From: a virus
Lineage: Duplodnaviria; Caudoviricetes
IMG/VR virus record: IMGVR_UViG_3300012944_000029
Coordinates: 1 to 53,777 of that record
Strand: one strand, 5' to 3'
DNA: 53,777 nucleotides
The notes below the pieces were generated by a model. The model did no database searches, was not told the origin of the DNA, and saw nothing but the letters and a program-made list of their open reading frames with translations. Position numbers and translations under genes: made by a program. Shown one piece after another: positions 25,317 to 41,319 of this stretch (position 1 is its first letter; every line of letters starts with the position of its first letter).

Positions 25317-25921
25317 TTACTCATCCAGCACCAAGCTGGAAACGCGGCCTGGACCTCTTTGGACATGTGGCCTTTGAGCAGGCCGAGTGGAAGCCATATC
25401 TTAGCTTTTAAGCCACACCCGCACACTGTGCAAGCGTGCAGATAATCGTCCTTGGTCGTTTTCTCGCCCCCAACGAACTGCGTGATGAGACCGCGTAGGT
25501 CCTCGGAGTTGCACGCCGCGCAGCCCGTAATTGGTTGGTTGCACGGACAATTTGCGCAGACCGAAGCACGACTCTCGGCTTCGTCCATGGTGACTTTCTC
25601 GCGCCCGCGAACCCACCAATCGAACAGAGTTCTCGTCCCGGCCAGGATGGCCCCGAACGATGTCGTGCCCGCGCCGTAAGCCTGAACTCCGCCCGATCCG
25701 ACATGCTCGCAAACTCCAGGTGGCATCGACTGGCAAAGCTGATCCTCGCTCTCCGTCGCGATGTCACCGAGCGGTATGCCGTTGGATTCACGGTGGGATT
25801 TGATGCGCTTATGCCAGTCGGGCATCGTCGGCGCTTCGATCCAGGTTTTGGTGGAAATTTCCAGGAATTTATACCCATTCGGAGGAACCTCGTTTCGACG
25901 GATGATGCGCAACATGGTCAA
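25313..25921 (-). CDS. Cys-rich hypothetical protein between TerL and portal
   Basis: CANCPCN, CAAC, CTVCGC and WCW clusters. Confidence 0.7.
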   Translation of the reverse strand: MTMLRIIRRNEVPPNGYKFLEISTKTWIEAPTMPDWHKRIKSHRESNGIPLGDIATESEDQLCQSMPPGVCEHVGSGGVQAYGAGTTSFGAILAGTRTLFDWWVRGREKVTMDEAESRASVCANCPCNQPITGCAACNSEDLRGLITQFVGGEKTTKDDYLHACTVCGCGLKAKIWLPLGLLKGHMSKEVQAAFPAWCWMSK

Positions 25922-27717
25922 TTCGTCACAAATTCAATCTCAGGCTCTGAAAACGACGCGCTTTCACCGTAAATGGCGTCCACTTCGCTCTCCAATCGTG
26001 ATCCTTCGCGTTCCAGCGTCATTTGGATCGGGGAATCAACCAGAAGCCCGAATCTTTCACGGCAAATATGGATGACCCCCGCCGCGGCATCTCCCTTGCC
26101 TGGAGAACGCCCGATTCTGAGCTTCATTCGCTTTTTTGACTCAGCCTCGATGCGCAAGCCTGATGGAGATTTTACGGTGGTGTACTTCCGAGCCTTCCAA
26201 TCACGCGCAAGCTCCTTGGAAACACCCCTAATCTGTCCCGCTCGCATAAGATCAGATCCGATGTACCACAATTCCGTGACTTTATTGACATAGAACTCTT
26301 TCGCCTTCTTGCCATCCTGTCCAACAGCCATTTCGGAGGCTGCGCCCGAGAAAGTGCACGGAACCACATCGGGACTCCACACTTCTCTCAAGATTTCACC
26401 AAACGGCAGGCCCGCGCCTGTGTTGTCCCAGCCGGCATTGGCCGGAATGATGCCTTCCCTCAGGCACATGTCGCGGTACTGGCGCGCGATCTGGAATGAG
26501 TGCGTGTCTTTCTTCAGGTTGACGTTTTCCTTGAGCACATCGAACCGAATAAATGCCACTGTCTCCTTGCCGTCGCTGGTCTGGCCGTACCAAGCGAAAT
26601 AAACCACCGATTCATCGCCGTCGTTCGTGAATCCCGGGTCGAGGAACGCGACTTTGGTCCTGGTCGTGTACCAAATCGGTTCGTCGTACGCTTTCCCGGC
26701 GATGAAATCAGCGTCTGAAAAGATTTTGTGCTCCTCTCCGGACGGGCACGGGAACGAGCGCACCATACGCCAGAATTGGGCGGTGTTTTCGCCCTTGGCT
26801 AAGTGCTCTTTGAGGTTTTTGGTGTTGTAAATGAACGGATAAACGTCCCGATCGAGGAGCACGTTAGGGCTTTGAGTGCCGTCGAACCGAATGCATTTGC
26901 CGTAATGCGTGTCCCACTCGGTATCCTCTGGCGTGACTGAGCCCCAGCCGTCTTTTGGCTCAGAGAATGTGCCCAGAGGATCGTCGATCGAATTGAAATT
27001 GCCAATCCCGATGAATTGGAAGTAAGGATTTGTCGCCAGATTATAAAAAGCAGCTGTCATCAGGGCTTCCGACAGCTCTGGAAGCTCATCTGCAATCATG
27101 ATCACGCGCTTATTCTTGCGCCCGATGATCTTTCCGACCGCTTCCTTCTCCTTTTTCTTTTCTCCGGGGATCAGCGTGATGCCAGACTTGTCGCTCTTGC
27201 CATATTCAGGTGGGAGTTTCAGGATTCCGAGAGAATCGACGAACTTCCCGGGCAATCCAGGATGCGCGAGATAATATTCCCTGATCGACCCCCAGATGCG
27301 TTGCCTGGAATCCTTGAGTGATGTGGATGTCACCAGGACCATCGTGTTGGTCGGGTCAGCGAGCCAGTTGATAATCCCCCAAATGGCAGCCCAATCCGTT
27401 TTTCCGCTCGAAGCGCACCCAATCAGAGCAAGGTAATTATTCGCGCACGCTTCCTCAGTGGCCTTCTCTGCCCATGGATGCCAGACGAACGGCTTGGTTT
27501 TCTTGTTCCAGAGGATCTTGGCCGCTTCCATGAAATGGCCGGCCTTACCGATGCCGCCATTCTCCGGCATGCGCCCTTCAAGGAAGCAGTTTAGCTCAAT
27601 ATCGAGATCCGAAAGAACTGGCACAGGCGCATGAGCATCCTGGACGAAGGCGTAGATCGGACCGTACTTCGTCTCAATCTTGTGGGCTAACTCGCGAGTG
27701 ATATTTTGTGTTGACAT
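25918..27717 (-). CDS. terL: Terminase large subunit
   Basis: Walker A GCASSGKT, Walker B IMIADE, coupling motif IGN, nuclease LDPG and C-terminal SPGKGDA. Confidence 0.9.
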   Translation of the reverse strand: MSTQNITRELAHKIETKYGPIYAFVQDAHAPVPVLSDLDIELNCFLEGRMPENGGIGKAGHFMEAAKILWNKKTKPFVWHPWAEKATEEACANNYLALIGCASSGKTDWAAIWGIINWLADPTNTMVLVTSTSLKDSRQRIWGSIREYYLAHPGLPGKFVDSLGILKLPPEYGKSDKSGITLIPGEKKKEKEAVGKIIGRKNKRVIMIADELPELSEALMTAAFYNLATNPYFQFIGIGNFNSIDDPLGTFSEPKDGWGSVTPEDTEWDTHYGKCIRFDGTQSPNVLLDRDVYPFIYNTKNLKEHLAKGENTAQFWRMVRSFPCPSGEEHKIFSDADFIAGKAYDEPIWYTTRTKVAFLDPGFTNDGDESVVYFAWYGQTSDGKETVAFIRFDVLKENVNLKKDTHSFQIARQYRDMCLREGIIPANAGWDNTGAGLPFGEILREVWSPDVVPCTFSGAASEMAVGQDGKKAKEFYVNKVTELWYIGSDLMRAGQIRGVSKELARDWKARKYTTVKSPSGLRIEAESKKRMKLRIGRSPGKGDAAAGVIHICRERFGLLVDSPIQMTLEREGSRLESEVDAIYGESASFSEPEIEFVTN

Positions 27718-28444: not shown

Positions 28445-28630
28445 ATGAAGAATATAGAATCTGAATTTGATATCCGGTCGCTTCGGGACAAGGTGTTCGA
28501 TGTCCCAACAACAGACAAGAATTGGGAAGCCTGCAAAGCTCATTGGATGCGTCTCGATTCCATTGCGTGGCTGAAGTCAAAAGAGTCCATTTCCCTGAGA
28601 GCGCAAGAGATTTTGGAGGGCAAGAAGTGA
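28445..28630 (+). CDS. Hypothetical protein
   Basis: AAGGA SD; coupled to the next ORF. Confidence 0.55.
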   Translation: MKNIESEFDIRSLRDKVFDVPTTDKNWEACKAHWMRLDSIAWLKSKESISLRAQEILEGKK

Positions 28631-28962
28631 CATGGCCCGAAGAGAAAGGATTTGTCCGTGACCCCAAGACCGGAGAATACTGGAAGCCCGATCGTAAGAT
28701 TGAAAATCCGGGGCATCGATCATATCCCGTCATTCAAGAACCGCAAGCGGGCCATATTCGACGTAAAGAAAGGCCACATGCGGACTTTGACGCCAGCAAG
28801 CGTCAAAAAAAGGATGGACTCCCTGGAAAACGCTATCGTGTCAGCGTTGTATTCCGCGTGTCAGATAAGCGAAGACGTGATGCATTCGGAATGCTTGAAA
28901 CGGTTGCGGACTGCCTTGTCAGGGCTTTGCGACGATTCAATCAAGGAAATTCCGTGCGGTGA
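28627..28962 (+). CDS. RusA-like protein, frame B (central catalytic motif)
   Basis: GTG overlaps the upstream TGA; RVSVVFRVSDKRRRDAFGMLETVADCLVRA. Confidence 0.55.
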   Translation: MTWPEEKGFVRDPKTGEYWKPDRKIENPGHRSYPVIQEPQAGHIRRKERPHADFDASKRQKKDGLPGKRYRVSVVFRVSDKRRRDAFGMLETVADCLVRALRRFNQGNSVR

Positions 28963-29029
28963 CTGGGACACTATTTACGTTCCAAATGGTGAAGAGGGCG
29001 CTGACATTCTGGTCGAGAGGCTGACGTGA
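28652..29029 (+). CDS. RusA-like protein, frame A (N- and C-terminal motifs)
   Basis: IPSFKNRKR N-motif; DDSIKEI...V..GEEGADILVE C-motif. Confidence 0.55.
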   Translation: MSVTPRPENTGSPIVRLKIRGIDHIPSFKNRKRAIFDVKKGHMRTLTPASVKKRMDSLENAIVSALYSACQISEDVMHSECLKRLRTALSGLCDDSIKEIPCGDWDTIYVPNGEEGADILVERLT

Positions 29030-37839: not shown

Positions 37840-38225
37840 ATCCCCTCTCTAAATTTCGTTGGTACCGTCGCATGAGAGGCGGATATTGGGGGCAAGTAAC
37901 AGGTGGCTTTGCTTTTAATGTCTTGGGCAATCTTAATGGCAGGAAATGGGTCAGAGTGTCAAATTGGAGCACTGCTCCCCTACCTAATGGACAATGGGAG
38001 TTTTATCCTTGGGCCAAAAAAGAGCGAGGCAACGGTTTCTGTGACGAATGGTACGAAATGGAACCCTTTTATATGGTGCCATTATCTTCAGTTTACATGG
38101 AGATTTTCGGAACTTCTGATCCTGAAAATCTCAAGGAAGTTTCAAACGGGTGGTTCTCCGAAATAATGTCAGATCCTAAAACCCCAAAAGAGCGTCAAGA
38201 ATTTTGGGTTAACAGAAATAAATGA
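37836..38225 (+). CDS. Hypothetical protein
   Basis: Coupled ORF; AT-richer than its neighbours. Confidence 0.6.
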   Translation: MNPLSKFRWYRRMRGGYWGQVTGGFAFNVLGNLNGRKWVRVSNWSTAPLPNGQWEFYPWAKKERGNGFCDEWYEMEPFYMVPLSSVYMEIFGTSDPENLKEVSNGWFSEIMSDPKTPKERQEFWVNRNK

Positions 38226-38980
38226 AACTCCCCATAACCAACTGGGCACTGGACTACAGCAGTACCGTCAAGGTGCCAAATCTCCAGAGATTCGACCTTT
38301 TCATCACTGGCGGCCCCGCGGTACCGGTGCCTGCCGTTCCGCAGCCCTTTTTCTATTGTTCATGGGCCGAAATGCTCAAGGGCAACGCCCAGCGCGTCAG
38401 CGCGGATACTGGCGTTGCGATCCTAGGGGAAAATAAGAAATGGGGAACATGCTTCATGGATTGCGGCGAGCCACGCTGGGCTGATTACCTCTTGTCCAGT
38501 GTTATAATCCCTGGGAAAGCTGCGGGGTACAAGGGCGTTTTCCTGGACACTTTTGACGGAATGGAGGATTGCGCCAATGCGTTGGGATATGGAGACCCAT
38601 CCCCGGAGCGGACACGCCTTTACCTTGGTAGCCTGAACTTCGTCCAGCGCCTTTGCGACCTTGGCGACCTGAAGGTCATCACCAACCGTGGTTTTCCGCA
38701 GTGCGTTATGGGTATGGCGAGCTTTCCCTGCTACGCTGGCATGATGATAGAGTCAGCTTGGCAATCGACCGGAGGCCCGACGCCCCAAAGCGAGCGGCAA
38801 TGGATTTGGGAGCAGTTGGCCAGCTTTGACACGTCCGGGATGACAATCTTGACCTTGGACTATTGCCAGGATCAGGACAAGGCTGGCCAAATCTGCCAGC
38901 GCTCGGAAGCGCGAGGATTTACCCCACTGGTCGTCCGCGGCAGTCTCACCCCACCCAAAATCGTAGCTTACCCCAAATGA
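38222..38980 (+). CDS. Endo-alpha-1,4-polygalactosaminidase-like hydrolase (PelA hydrolase / GH114-GH166-like)
   Basis: Y-S-AE, N--W, W---L, GYKGVFLDT-D, NRGF, IES, LDY and GF-P motifs in TIM-barrel order. Confidence 0.75.
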   Translation: MKLPITNWALDYSSTVKVPNLQRFDLFITGGPAVPVPAVPQPFFYCSWAEMLKGNAQRVSADTGVAILGENKKWGTCFMDCGEPRWADYLLSSVIIPGKAAGYKGVFLDTFDGMEDCANALGYGDPSPERTRLYLGSLNFVQRLCDLGDLKVITNRGFPQCVMGMASFPCYAGMMIESAWQSTGGPTPQSERQWIWEQLASFDTSGMTILTLDYCQDQDKAGQICQRSEARGFTPLVVRGSLTPPKIVAYPK

Positions 38981-39458: not shown

Positions 39459-39576
39459 CCAGAGTTGATGACTTCAAACCACCTTAACCGGAAAAGGCCT
39501 AATCATCCCCATGGGGTTAATGGACCGTGGTGAGCCCTCTAGACAGTTCAAAAACCAACCAAACCTAAAAGGAACC

Positions 39577-40443
39577 ATGAACGAACCCGCAGAAGAACAA
39601 AACAAGCTGGCCCACATCTCGGACCCTCCGGGCCTCCTGGAGCGCGCCATAGCCTCGGGCGCAAATATCGAAGTGATTGAGCGCCTGATGGGCCTTCAGG
39701 AGCGATGGCAAGCCAATCGGGCCAAGCAGGCTTTCGATGGCGCAATGGCGGCTCTGCGGACTGAATTGCCGCCGATCGTCAAAAATAATACCGTCGATTT
39801 CACGACTGCCCGGGGGCGCACCCATTACAAATACGAGGACTTGCAAGACGTGACCGAGGCTCTAACTCCGGTTATGGCGAAATACGGATTGTCGTTCCGA
39901 TGGCGCACGCAGCCGGGAGAGCTGGTTACGGTGACATGCATTGTCAGCCATCGCGAAGGCCACAGCGAGGAGTGTGCGTTGTCCGCCCCTCGTGACGAGA
40001 GCGGCAATAAGAACGCGATTCAAGCCCTGGGAAGCGCGATCACCTATTTACAGCGGTACACGCTGAAAGCTGCCCTGGGCGTGGCGGCTACGCGTGACGA
40101 CGATGGACAATCATCCGGCGCACGGCCAGAGCCAGCGCGGGAGGGAGCACCGTCCGCTCCTAGCAACTGGCGAGATTACCCGGTTCCATTCGGCAAGAAC
40201 AAAGGTGCCAAGCTCGGAGCGCTGGAGAGCAAGTCCTTGTCGTGGTACATCGAGAAATACGAGCCCAAGCCCTACAACGGCAAGATCAGCGACAGCGACC
40301 AAGCTTTCCGCGCGGCGCTGGATGCCGCTAAGGCTGACCTAGCCAAGCCACCCGAGCGCGGGCCGGAGATGAGCCAGGCTGAGAAGGATGCCATTATGGA
40401 TCGGGAGATCCGTGACGCAGAACCTGCAGACACCCAGGATTAA
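39577..40443 (+). CDS. erf: ERF-family single-strand annealing protein
   Basis: Y-YEDL, H-EGHSE, GSAITYLQRY-L and DDDG motifs. Confidence 0.92.
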   Translation: MNEPAEEQNKLAHISDPPGLLERAIASGANIEVIERLMGLQERWQANRAKQAFDGAMAALRTELPPIVKNNTVDFTTARGRTHYKYEDLQDVTEALTPVMAKYGLSFRWRTQPGELVTVTCIVSHREGHSEECALSAPRDESGNKNAIQALGSAITYLQRYTLKAALGVAATRDDDGQSSGARPEPAREGAPSAPSNWRDYPVPFGKNKGAKLGALESKSLSWYIEKYEPKPYNGKISDSDQAFRAALDAAKADLAKPPERGPEMSQAEKDAIMDREIRDAEPADTQD

Positions 40444-40448
40444 AGCCT

Positions 40449-40718
40449 ATGACACCCGAACAACTTGACGCCTTTCACATGGCCTTTCTCACGGCGCGAA
40501 GCTTCCTATGGTGCGACGATGGAAGCCTGAATTCAGGCCACCCCAATGCGAAGGCCCTCACCCAACTTTCGATGCTTCTTGTTTATGCCGAATCCACCGC
40601 CGAAGCACTCCTAACCCAAAAACCCAATGACCAACCAAAACCTGATAGCAATAACCCCACCATTCATGAAGGTCAAATTCGCCAAGACCAAGGCGCACCA
40701 GCGTTACCGTACGATTGA
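40449..40718 (+). CDS. Hypothetical protein
   Basis: ORF between erf and the exonuclease. Confidence 0.5.
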   Translation: MTPEQLDAFHMAFLTARSFLWCDDGSLNSGHPNAKALTQLSMLLVYAESTAEALLTQKPNDQPKPDSNNPTIHEGQIRQDQGAPALPYD

Positions 40719-41319
40719 CGGGAAAGTCGTCCCGGGAGTCACCACGATCCTGGGTGTCATCAACAAGCCCGCCCTGCTCAAGTGGGCATGGCAATGCGGC
40801 ATGGACGGAGTCGACCTGGATGCGGCGCGCAGCCAAGCCGCGGACATTGGCACGCTCGCCCATTTCATGATCGAATGCCACCACAACGGTCAAGAGGCTG
40901 ATCTGTCAGAGTTCAGCCCTGAACAGCAGGACAAAGCGACAAACAGTTTCCTAAAATTCCTCGAGTACTGGGATAAGTCTGGCTTTAAGCTGGTCCACTC
41001 AGAACCCCAGCTTGTCAGCGAGGAATACCGTTATGGCGGAACCATTGACACCATCTTCGAGGATCGCGACGGGCGTCTTGGCATCATGGACACCAAATCC
41101 AGCAAAGCCATTTACTCCGACATGTGGCACCAAGTGGCCGCGTATAAGCGTCTGGCCGAGGAAAATCTCTCTCGTGAGGTTAATCGAACCATCATTGTCA
41201 GGATCGGAAAAGAGGAGTCCGGAGACTTCGAGGTTGCCGAGCGTCAACTGACGGTAAGACACTGGAGCGTGTTCAAGAGCGCCCTGAACCTTTACAACGC
41301 CACTAAGGAGTCAGATTGA
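40627..41319 (+). CDS. PD-(D/E)XK exonuclease (recombination partner of ERF)
   Basis: PGVTTIL, GT-AH, E, GTID, D-KSS and Q-AAY motifs. Confidence 0.9.
   Translation: MTNQNLIAITPPFMKVKFAKTKAHQRYRTIDGKVVPGVTTILGVINKPALLKWAWQCGMDGVDLDAARSQAADIGTLAHFMIECHHNGQEADLSEFSPEQQDKATNSFLKFLEYWDKSGFKLVHSEPQLVSEEYRYGGTIDTIFEDRDGRLGIMDTKSSKAIYSDMWHQVAAYKRLAEENLSREVNRTIIVRIGKEESGDFEVAERQLTVRHWSVFKSALNLYNATKESD

What the first reader, a model, noticed from the sequence alone, without database searches (positions are those of the whole stretch)
28627..29029. RusA resolvase motifs split between two overlapping reading frames
Seen: two frames are open over the same ~310 nt. Frame A holds RusA-like N- and C-terminal motifs (IPSFKN; DDSI...V..GEEGADILVE). 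Frame B, coupled to the upstream stop, holds the central motif V-VVF-V-DKRRRD...L-TV-DCLVRA, which abuts frame A's LCDDS. An A7 run lies at 28805-28811, near the needed A>B switch. Established: RusA has these motifs in one chain in the order PS-N, RRD, D-L, DD. Inference: a double frameshift, a two-chain split enzyme, or two genes born from one by compensating frameshifts.
Basis: partly seen in the sequence, partly recalled or inferred. Interest (0 to 1): 0.8.

Follow-up and report, generated by a model that had tools for sequence, protein, structure and literature searches.

The report
RusA-like resolvase split across two frames
A phage gene for a RusA-like DNA-junction-cutting enzyme has its catalytic middle written in a different, overlapping reading frame from its two ends, and this odd layout is conserved across a whole family of phages, which suggests an enzyme built from two overlapping genes.

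Summary
Two + strand ORFs overlap over 332 nt: A (28658-29029) and B (28627-28962, the -1 frame of A).

A belongs to a large family with no Pfam family (31 near homologues, 123 cluster representatives). B-type ORFs are also called as genes elsewhere (7 proteins).

In DNA of 24 loci, purifying selection changes frame twice. It acts on frame A in the N part and C part, and on frame B in the middle (A codons 60-93).

The three selected pieces follow the order of RusA. Against a RusA profile, frame A alone gives P=0.085, frame B alone P=2.2e-6, and the A-B-A read-through P=4.8e-8 (94.8%). The only PDB sequence hit of the B middle is E. coli RusA, and it is weak (E=0.23). Pfam's RusA model stays silent.

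Both ORFs stay open well beyond the parts under amino-acid selection. B starts on the upstream gene's stop codon and has its own conserved N-terminus. No slippery site is conserved, and the A7 run is not conserved.

One relative (L045) carries the middle and C part in one frame.

Best reading (about 0.5): two overlapping genes whose products complement into one RusA-like resolvase. The fold-based complex test gave weak support only. A programmed double frameshift is not excluded. No expression data were available.

The parts
28445..28630 (+). Upstream small gene (61 aa) in the same frame as ORF A. Its TGA (28628-28630) overlaps the start codon of ORF B.
   Evidence: an upstream ORF in frame A ends at that stop. 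No Pfam or PHROG hit.
28614..28618 (+). Shine-Dalgarno-like GGAGG, 8 nt before the GTG of ORF B.
   Evidence: Read directly.
28627..28962 (+). ORF B (111 aa), the -1 frame relative to A. It has its own N-terminus, then a linker that overlaps A's N part, then the RusA-like catalytic strand-helix, then a short tail.
   Evidence: Open in 24 of 24 loci analysed. Seven B-type ORFs of 101-140 aa are called as genes elsewhere. A B-frame start codon overlaps the stop that bounds frame A in 16 of 23 loci.
28627..28657 (+). First codons of ORF B, upstream of A's start and so coding in one frame only. They begin a conserved B N-terminal motif of the type KG[FWY]xRDxxGxW.
   Evidence: The same motif type appears in L028, L038, L045 and P0151. 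AlphaFold2 gives pLDDT 93-95 for this module in L045. Codon usage favours frame B at 28620-28665.
28658..29029 (+). ORF A (123 aa from GTG 28658; alternative starts are TTG 28652 and TTG 28700). It consists of N part, passenger middle and C part.
   Evidence: 31 homologues and 123 cluster representatives, most aligned end to end in one stretch. 133 of 145 family rows hold N, middle and C. AAAGGA lies 7 nt before GTG 28658. The ESM Atlas holds the 123-aa form letter for letter.
28691..28828 (+). N part, under selection in frame A (A residues 14-59, numbered from 28652): a strand, then IPSFKNRKR, then a helix ending RMxxLE.
   Evidence: DNA of 24 loci: mean pairwise difference at codon positions 1/2/3 = 0.46/0.37/0.59, and position 3 is the most variable in 27 of 40 codons. 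AlphaFold2 pLDDT is 80-92 here.
28828..28929 (+). Middle, under selection in frame B (B residues 68-101): YRVSVVFRVSDKRRRDAFGMLETVADCLVRA. It matches RusA strand 2 and helix 2, which carry the catalytic Asp region.
   Evidence: A-frame positions 1/2/3 vary 0.33/0.56/0.45, which is position 3 > 1 > 2 when read in frame B. In 146 A proteins, 29 of 34 columns show the inferred first nucleotide more conserved than the second. hhalign of B alone against RusA: 89%, P=2.2e-6. The only PDB hit is 1q8r_A, RusA.
28829..28930 (+). The same DNA read in frame A (A residues 60-93, 'M-prime'). It is a passenger segment kept free of stops but not selected at the amino-acid level.
   Evidence: Column make-up such as G51 E42 A33 V13 at residue 76 fits Arg CGN in frame B. 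AlphaFold2 pLDDT is 51-62 over residues 71-100. Stop-free in 24 of 24 loci; the product of the chance values is 1.8e-9.
28931..29026 (+). C part, under selection in frame A (residues 94-125): DDS...IP...GEEGADILVERL. It matches RusA's DD motif and last two strands.
   Evidence: Positions 1/2/3 vary 0.46/0.37/0.66. Adding it to the B middle lengthens the RusA alignment from 41 to 66 columns and lowers P from 2.2e-6 to 4.8e-8. In L045 the homologous segment lies in the same frame as the middle.
28805..28811 (+). A7 run (Lys-Lys codons in frame A). It is not a conserved slip site.
   Evidence: Runs of 5 or more occur in 12 of 24 loci. The run lies upstream of the frame-A-conserved RMxxLE.

Best explanation
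The locus holds two almost fully overlapping genes, both translated.

ORF B starts on the stop codon of the upstream gene. It encodes a small conserved N-terminal module, an unconstrained linker, and then the RusA-type catalytic strand-helix (SDKRRRD...ETVADCL).

ORF A starts about 30 nt downstream in the +1 frame. It encodes the RusA-type N-terminal third (strand, PSFKN loop, helix), an unconstrained passenger middle, and the RusA-type C-terminal third (DDS plus the last strands).

Shown: frame-alternating purifying selection, maintenance of both ORFs, and co-linearity of the selected middle and C pieces with RusA.

Inferred: the two polypeptides assemble, with B's strand-helix filling the gap in A. 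This would give one RusA-like Holliday-junction resolvase whose acidic site is shared between chains (D85 and E91 of B; D94 and D95 of A, numbered from 28652). The layout most likely arose from a one-frame RusA-like gene by successive indels. L045 (N part in one frame, middle plus C part in the other) would be an intermediate.
For: 1. Both ORFs are real and widespread.
- A has 31 homologues and 123 representatives.
- Seven B ORFs are called elsewhere.
- P0153 (B) and P0022 (A) fit one DNA at 94 of 95 codons.

2. The selected frame alternates.
- 24 loci, A-frame codon positions 1/2/3: N part 0.46/0.37/0.59; middle 0.33/0.56/0.45; C part 0.46/0.37/0.66.
- 146 proteins: 29 of 34 middle columns have the inferred second nucleotide more variable than the first, against 20 of 45 (N part) and 13 of 30 (C part).
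- In the window's near relatives, changes in the second half of the middle are mostly synonymous in B but change the residue in A.

3. RusA likeness.
- hhalign against 15 RusA sequences: A 0.7% (P=0.085), B 89% (P=2.2e-6), A-B-A 94.8% (P=4.8e-8, 66 columns up to the C-terminus).
- The only PDB sequence hit of the B-middle profile is 1q8r_A, RusA (E=0.23).
- The nearest named ESM Atlas clusters for B are RusA (scores 0.87 and 0.86, a lead only).
- The B segment is the top RusA-like segment of 1085 in the genome.
- 17 of 24 B middles carry RD-x-DG, as in RusA's RDLDN.

4. Both ORFs are open beyond what selection on residues needs.
- B over A's N part: no stop in 22 of 23 loci, Fisher p=4.6e-3.
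- A over the middle: no stop in 24 of 24 loci, product of chance values 1.8e-9.
- 0 of 145 family rows are N-only fragments.

5. B has a genuine start. A B-frame ATG, GTG or TTG overlaps the stop that bounds frame A in 16 of 23 loci, and in 10 of these an upstream ORF of 50 or more codons ends there. B's N-terminal motifs are conserved and fold at pLDDT 93-95.

6. L045 has the middle and C part in one frame with RusA's exact D-to-DD spacing, while frame A stops inside the middle.

7. Complex prediction for A plus B residues 60-111 gave weak support: ipSAE 0.52, best of 3 controls 0.00.
- The mark was reached by 58 of 80 solved complexes and 2 of 110 mismatched pairs.
- At 0.60 or under it was reached by only 7 of those 80 solved complexes and by both mismatches that passed, so this is a weak pass.
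- The runs agree in at least 78% of their contacts, and the partner's pLDDT is at least 64.
- Chain A's pLDDT was 64-65 with B against 39-40 with unrelated partners.
Against: - There are no expression data of any kind: no sequencing run was listed.
- Pfam RusA does not score any frame, the B-to-A read-through, ten B ORFs of relatives, or L045's B ORF.
- The N part's likeness to RusA (PSFKN against PPSVN) is not statistically supported. The significant alignment begins at strand 2.
- The window's own subgroup lacks the second catalytic Asp (RDAFG, not RD-x-D), so this copy may cut differently or not at all.
- L003 has only CTG at the coupled position.
- The complex test is only a weak pass, of a kind the tool says is more often wrong than right unless the guess was likely beforehand.
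- AlphaFold2 of A alone finds no PDB neighbour. B of L045 alone is poorly folded outside its N-terminus and one helix. This fits complementation but does not prove it.
- The openness statistics treat loci as independent, which they are only roughly.
Confidence: 0.5

Rival explanations
1. A single chain is made by recoding. Ribosomes (or slipping RNA polymerase) shift -1 near 28829 and +1 near 28930, possibly after starting in B. The product is one canonical N-middle-C RusA-like protein, and the full A and B products are by-products.
For: The selected pieces join into a protein co-linear with RusA over its whole length (global hhalign P=6.5e-5 against 0.39 for A alone). In L045 a single -1 shift would be enough. 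Codon usage in the window follows a B-A-B-A pattern. The window has an A7 run 20 nt upstream of the first junction.
Against: - No slippery heptamer or homopolymer is conserved at either junction. Runs of 5 or more occur in 12 of 24 loci at junction 1 and 1 of 24 at junction 2.
- There is no 0-frame stop or other usual +1 signal at junction 2. B runs on for 7-30 codons after it.
- The model does not explain why B is open, properly started and N-terminally conserved, or why A's middle is never interrupted.
- Two or three low-efficiency events in series would give very little product.
- The genome carries no tRNA gene.
Confidence: 0.15
2. Two overlapping genes are both translated, but they act separately. 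B is a small RusA-derived or merely RusA-like DNA-binding or nuclease fragment. A is a different protein. No shared fold is rebuilt.
For: Everything that shows two maintained ORFs applies here too. Pfam does not see RusA. The window subgroup lacks the second catalytic Asp. The complex test is only a weak pass.
Against: - A's C part continues the RusA alignment straight on from B's middle (41 to 66 columns, P 2.2e-6 to 4.8e-8).
- That C part is physically fused to the middle in L045 with RusA's spacing.
- Neither A nor B folds convincingly alone, while each gains about 25 pLDDT points in the other's presence.
- A strand-helix of about 35 residues is unlikely to be a stable protein by itself.
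Confidence: 0.25
3. Only frame A is a gene. Frame B is a decaying ghost of an ancestral frame after two compensating indels ('out-of-frame remodelling'), or a chance pattern, or an assembly error.
For: Compensated frameshifts that remodel genes are described for E. coli (PMC8788219, abstract read). Database gene callers mostly call A.
Against: - In the middle the codon-position pattern is that of frame B, not A, across 24 loci and 146 proteins.
- Frame B is open in 24 of 24 diverged loci.
- B's start and N-terminus are conserved.
- Independent metagenomes share the layout, so sequencing error is excluded.
Confidence: 0.03

Closest known systems
RusA Holliday-junction resolvase (Pfam PF05866; E. 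coli RusA, PDB 1q8r)
   Same: - The order and spacing of elements match: strand, P-S-x-N loop, helix; strand ending in SD/PD-x-R-x-RD; helix with D-x-L; DD; two last strands.
- Profile-profile match of the A-B-A read-through is 94.8%, P=4.8e-8.
- 1q8r is the only PDB hit of the B middle.
- The size is about 120 aa, and the gene is a phage gene.
   Different: - The chain is not encoded in one frame. The middle is in the -1 frame of the ends.
- The Pfam model does not reach any threshold.
- The window's subgroup has RDAFG...E where RusA has RDLDN...K.
- B carries an extra N-terminal module.
Overlapping (overprinted) phage genes, such as lambda Rz/Rz1 or the phiX174 overlaps (recalled, not checked here; reviews listed, titles and abstract openings only)
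   Same: Two same-strand ORFs share the same DNA. Each protein's constrained parts sit over the other's unconstrained parts.
   Different: In the known cases the two products are unrelated proteins, one usually new and disordered. Here the constrained parts of the two ORFs are consecutive pieces of one ancestral fold.
Programmed frameshifting (dnaX, phage tail chaperone G/GT, prfB; recalled. A review, PMC5009743, was only listed)
   Same: Information for one product lies in two frames of one mRNA.
   Different: The known cases use one shift at a conserved slippery site, often with a stop or a structure nearby. Here two shifts (or three) would be needed and no signal is conserved.
Out-of-frame remodelled gene families (Watson, Lopez, Bapteste 2021, PMC8788219; abstract read)
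   Same: Part of a gene is moved into another frame by indels. L045 against the other loci documents such an event between the middle and the C part.
   Different: As I understand that concept, the old frame of a remodelled stretch is simply lost; I read only the abstract, which does not address this. Here the old frame is still under purifying selection and is kept as an ORF of its own.

Membership tests
RusA (PF05866) | Scores above the Pfam gathering threshold (22.8 bits) | tested here: not met
   No hit for frame A, for frame B, in six frames, for the B-to-A read-through P0157, for 10 B ORFs of relatives, or for L045's B ORF. The control, E. coli rusA, scores 81.5 bits.
RusA (PF05866) | Profile-level homology to bona fide RusA sequences | tested here: met
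   hhalign against 15 annotated RusA sequences: A-B-A 94.8%, P=4.8e-8; B 89%, P=2.2e-6; A 0.7%. PDB profile search: the only hit is 1q8r_A, E=0.23.
RusA (PF05866) | Catalytic acidic residues: RD-x-D at the start of helix 2, and DD before strand 3. (The essential roles of D70, D72 and D91 are recalled from the literature. The motifs themselves are seen in the 15-sequence alignment.) | tested here: inconclusive
   The first Asp and the DD are invariant, but they lie in different frames. The second Asp is present in 17 of 24 B middles and is replaced by F in the window, L001 and L003.
RusA (PF05866) | One polypeptide of about 120 aa carrying all elements | tested here: not met
   The elements are split between ORFs A and B in 24 loci. 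A search with the B-to-A read-through (M-C) found no single-frame relative.
RusA (PF05866) | RusA fold (mixed sheet flanked by two helices, homodimer) | tested here: inconclusive
   The A model has no PDB neighbour at E<=0.001. The B(L045) model is confident only in its N-terminus and one helix. The joined chain could not be handed to the folding tool.
RusA (PF05866) | Cleaves Holliday junctions | not testable with these tools
   Needs a biochemical assay.
Same-strand overlapping gene pair | Both ORFs conserved and open in diverged relatives beyond chance | tested here: met
Same-strand overlapping gene pair | Purifying selection detectable in both frames | tested here: met
   Frame A in the N and C parts, frame B in the middle. 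B's N-terminus is conserved where it alone codes.
Same-strand overlapping gene pair | Both products are made | not testable with these tools
   No sequencing run was listed.
Programmed ribosomal frameshift | Conserved slippery sequence at the frame junction | tested here: not met
   Aligned junction DNA of 24 loci shows none. Homopolymers of 5 or more occur in 12 of 24 and 1 of 24 loci.
Programmed ribosomal frameshift | Stimulatory RNA structure or internal SD near the site | not tested
   No folding of the junction regions was run.

The most novel reading that the evidence does not exclude
One enzyme fold (RusA) is encoded in interleaved form by two overlapping reading frames of the same DNA and is rebuilt after translation from two polypeptides. 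ORF A gives the first and last thirds. ORF B, in the -1 frame, gives the catalytic middle. Translational coupling to one upstream gene would feed both starts. The arrangement is old and stable (24 loci, 146 proteins). An intermediate form, L045, shows how successive indels can turn one gene into a pair of co-dependent overlapping genes.
Probability: 0.45. Interest if true: 0.92.

Novelty: categorically new. Interest (0 to 1): 0.86.

Why it matters
Overlapping genes are usually seen as one old gene plus a new, unrelated passenger. Frameshift indels are usually seen as gene-killing unless compensated. Here the selected information for one known fold alternates between two frames, both frames are kept as complete ORFs, and the layout persists across a diverse phage family.

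If the two products complement, this is a new way to encode an enzyme. It would also be a worked example of how a frameshift can be rescued by recruiting the old frame as a second gene, and a natural split-protein system with built-in co-expression. If the cell instead makes one chain, this would be a conserved double recoding event with no recognisable signal, which would be equally unexpected.

There is also a practical point. Gene callers annotate only A, so the catalytic half of these resolvases is invisible and the family carries no functional name. Codon-position tests like the one used here could reveal more such cases.

Tried and rejected
- Assembly or indel error: rejected. The layout recurs in 24 diverged loci from different samples.
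- A7 run as slip site: rejected.
- Pfam and PHROGs on A, B, the B-to-A read-through, relatives' B ORFs and L045: no RusA hit. Six-frame PF05866 search of the genome: none.
- PDB profile search with the A family: only three unrelated hits at E 0.65-0.99.
- Pfam on the 31 A members: no shared family.
- Foldseek of the A model against PDB: nothing at E<=0.001.
- ESM Atlas for A: no usable feature hit; its own model has pLDDT 0.38.
- Searches for close relatives with single proteins or alignment A1 found nothing in viral contigs, genome contigs or the phage collection. The metagenome scan gave 5 loci. A sub-alignment of distant members (A4) gave 23 viral loci.
- Search for one-frame middle-plus-C relatives with P0157 residues 64-133: only the window's own A and five B ORFs. 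This search needs shared 5-residue words, so distant one-frame forms may exist.
- L045's B ORF: only itself in viral contigs.
- Frameshift-suppressor tRNA idea: no tRNA gene in the genome.
- Sequencing runs: none was listed, and no RNA holder was listed.
- Earlier findings of this scan: nothing to show.
- Literature: three full-text searches found no report of a RusA or resolvase gene split between frames. One paper lists 'RusA/RuvC' among genes 'known to contain a frameshift' (PMC10885494, passages read), but the reference behind it concerns identification of the ruvC product. Supplements were not consulted.
- Fisher's method on A-middle openness gave p=0.78. It is unsuited to this discrete all-or-none outcome, so I report the product of the chance values instead and flag the independence assumption.
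- The first version of the locus script crashed on a missing landmark and was rerun. L044 and L045 had no landmark under my rule and were left out of the 24-locus statistics. L033 was dropped as identical to L032 in this gene. L004 and L005 are partial.
- My notebook miscounted the ATGA/GTGA starts as 14. The counts to use are 13 of 23 by the first rule and 16 of 23 by the stricter positional rule.
Full report
**What is at the site.** The window is a complete 53,777-bp phage genome with direct terminal repeats. On the + strand, downstream of a 61-aa gene (28445-28630), two frames are open together.
- Frame A is open 28631-29029. Likely start: GTG 28658, preceded by AAAGGA.
- Frame B is the -1 frame of A and is open 28471-28962. 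Its GTG 28627 overlaps the upstream TGA as GTGA and follows GGAGG.
- Neither frame hits Pfam or PHROGs. A six-frame search with PF05866 finds nothing.

**Frame A is a real, large family.**
- The A protein has 31 homologues at 44-69% identity in the 5.8-billion-protein set.
- It has 123 cluster representatives in the exhaustive HMMER search, most aligned end to end in one stretch.
- In my alignment of 146 sequences, 133 of 145 relatives hold the N part, middle and C part. 11 lack the N part, 1 is other, and none is an N-only fragment.
- No member has a meaningful Pfam hit.
- AlphaFold2 with 31 sequences gives mean pLDDT 76. It gives only 51-62 over residues 71-100, including the most conserved motif LSGLCDDS.
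- The model has no PDB neighbour. The ESM Atlas's own model has pLDDT 0.38.

**Frame B is also real.**
- A search with the B translation returned 7 proteins of 101-140 aa called as genes on other contigs. All have ATG starts and an almost invariant last ~45 residues.
- P0153 (a B ORF) and P0022 (an A ORF) can be encoded by one DNA at 94 of 95 codons. B starts 8 codons before A there.
- In the four metagenome relatives with DNA (L001 = L002, L003, L004, L005), frame B is open over the same span and ends at nearly the same place. The third frame is full of stops.
- A sub-alignment of distant A members retrieved 23 more viral loci. In the 21 that had my landmarks, frame B is open for 101-286 codons.

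**Which frame is selected where.**
- From the 146 A proteins I inferred the first two nucleotides of each codon. In the N part (residues 14-59) and the C part (94-124), the second nucleotide is the more variable in 20 of 45 and 13 of 30 columns, as expected for ordinary coding. In the middle (60-93) it is the more variable in 29 of 34 columns (mean entropy 1.42 against 0.90).
- Individual columns are telling. Residue 76 is G51/E42/A33/V13: chemically incoherent in frame A, but all of these codons begin with G, which in frame B gives xGN and is compatible with Arg (CGN) when the preceding wobble base is C, as it is in the loci with DNA. Residues 72, 77 and 87 are T/I/M, which is Asp GAY in frame B.
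- Real DNA from 24 loci agrees. Mean pairwise differences at A-frame positions 1/2/3 are 0.46/0.37/0.59 (N part), 0.33/0.56/0.45 (middle) and 0.46/0.37/0.66 (C part). Read in frame B, the middle shows the normal order 3 > 1 > 2.
- In the window's near relatives, changes in the second half of the middle fall mostly on B's third position, and A's wobble bases are largely fixed there.

**RusA likeness.**
- I built a comparison profile from E. coli rusA and 14 annotated phage RusA genes.
- HMM scores in the window: A 1.5 bits, B 10.5, best A-B-A join 14.1 (junctions right after RMxxLE and at DDS), A-C-A control 1.3.
- Medians over 24 loci: -0.2, 13.3 and 14.2 bits.
- Profile-profile comparison over 24 loci: A 0.7% (P=0.085); B 89% (P=2.2e-6, 41 columns); A-B-A 94.8% (P=4.8e-8, 66 columns running from RusA strand 2 to its C-terminus).
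- A global alignment of the composite profile is co-linear with RusA (P=6.5e-5 against 0.39 for A).
- The frame B segment is the best RusA-like segment of 1085 in the genome.
- A 24-sequence profile of the B middle finds exactly one PDB sequence at E<=10: 1q8r_A, RusA, aligned over the catalytic strand-helix (E=0.23).
- The ESM Atlas's nearest named clusters for B are RusA (0.87 and 0.86, a lead only).
- Seventeen of 24 B middles read RD-x-DG, like RusA's RDLDN. The window, L001 and L003 read RD[AG]FG, with a Glu six residues after the Asp.
- Against membership: Pfam's own RusA model never fires, and the N part's resemblance is not significant.

**How the middle is expressed.**
- There is no conserved slippery sequence at either junction. 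B continues 7-30 codons past junction 2. The phage has no tRNA genes.
- Both ORFs are maintained where a frameshift model has no need of them. Frame B is stop-free over A's N part in 22 of 23 loci (Fisher p=4.6e-3 with a conservative null). Over the whole overlap the chance values are 0.003-0.038 per locus.
- Frame A is stop-free over the middle in 24 of 24 loci. The product of the chance values is 1.8e-9, assuming independence.
- A B-frame ATG, GTG or TTG overlaps the stop that bounds frame A in 16 of 23 loci. In 10 of these an upstream ORF of 50 or more codons ends there. A's start follows 4-55 nt later in most loci.
- B's first residues, which lie outside A, carry conserved motifs of three types. 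In L045 they are modelled at pLDDT 93-95.
- Taken together, this points to two complete translation products.

**L045.** In this relative of the window's subgroup, the N part is in one frame, which then stops inside the middle. The middle and C part are contiguous in the other frame, with RusA's exact spacing from the helix Asp to the DD and the conserved Gly between them. A strong AGGAGG precedes a TTGA/GTG pair of starts. So the frame junction between middle and C part is an evolutionary indel, and the N part can be encoded on a separate ORF from the catalytic core.

**Do A and B bind?** The one complex job used A (alignment of 120 rows) plus B residues 60-111 (11 rows), and gave weak support.
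- ipSAE was 0.52 in three runs, and the best of 3 controls was 0.00.
- The mark was reached by 58 of 80 solved complexes and 2 of 110 mismatches. At 0.60 or under it was reached by only 7 of the 80 and by both passing mismatches.
- Contacts agree in at least 78% of cases, and the partner's pLDDT is at least 64.
- A's pLDDT was 64-65 with B and 39-40 with unrelated partners. B's was 65 with A and 41 with an unrelated chain.
- This is suggestive only.

**Context and literature.** An ERF recombinase and a PD-(D/E)XK nuclease lie about 10 kb downstream. The immediate neighbours have no family. Three full-text searches found no description of such a gene. The nearest concept is out-of-frame gene remodelling (PMC8788219, abstract read).

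**Verdict.** The mechanism is open. I put about 0.5 on two overlapping genes whose products complement into a RusA-like resolvase, 0.25 on two independent products, 0.15 on recoding into one chain, and a few per cent on artefact or ghost frame.

Noticed in passing
L045:1461-1887 (frame of TTG 1461) and L045:1465-1706: A variant architecture. The middle and C part of the RusA-like core sit in one ORF (142 aa), while the N part sits on a separate overlapping 79-aa ORF that stops inside the middle. AGGAGG precedes a TTGA/GTG start pair. It is the only such locus found.
   Followed up: partly
window 28627-28700; L028, L038, L045 and P0151 N-termini: ORF B begins with a small conserved module of the type KG[FWY]xRDxxGxW. 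Other subgroups have RWTxEELxxYExR or LxxLLPxASExFLRxN. In L045 it is predicted as a helix plus hairpin at pLDDT 93-95. Its role is unknown.
   Followed up: partly
window 28814-28816 (Met55 of ORF A): This Met is nearly invariant in the family (131 of 146). Eleven database proteins lack the N part, and several of them start exactly at this Met, so some gene callers treat it as a start. Whether it serves as an internal start is open.
   Followed up: no
window 28879-28899 and the alignment: There is a correlated change in the B middle. Subgroups lacking the second Asp (RDAFG, RDLSG, RDAWG) have ...ET... six to seven residues later, where the RD-x-DG subgroups have ...ST.... This may be a replacement metal ligand.
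   Followed up: no
window 39511-40443 and 40627-41319: An ERF-family single-strand annealing protein (81 bits) is followed by a PD-(D/E)XK nuclease (26 bits). This is a recombination module about 10 kb downstream of the resolvase-like locus.
   Followed up: no
window 38222-38980: Borderline match to glycoside hydrolase family GH114 (26.9 bits against a cut-off of 27).
   Followed up: no
window 25918-27717 (- strand): A 599-aa ORF diverges from the + strand block that holds the locus. It had no PHROG hit at E<=0.001, and most neighbours are likewise without a family. The phage is poorly covered by current libraries.
   Followed up: no
L003:2950-2976: In this relative the codon overlapping the upstream stop in frame B is CTG, with AAAGGA 5 nt upstream. 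The nearest canonical B start is GTG 2898. This may be a non-canonical start.
   Followed up: no
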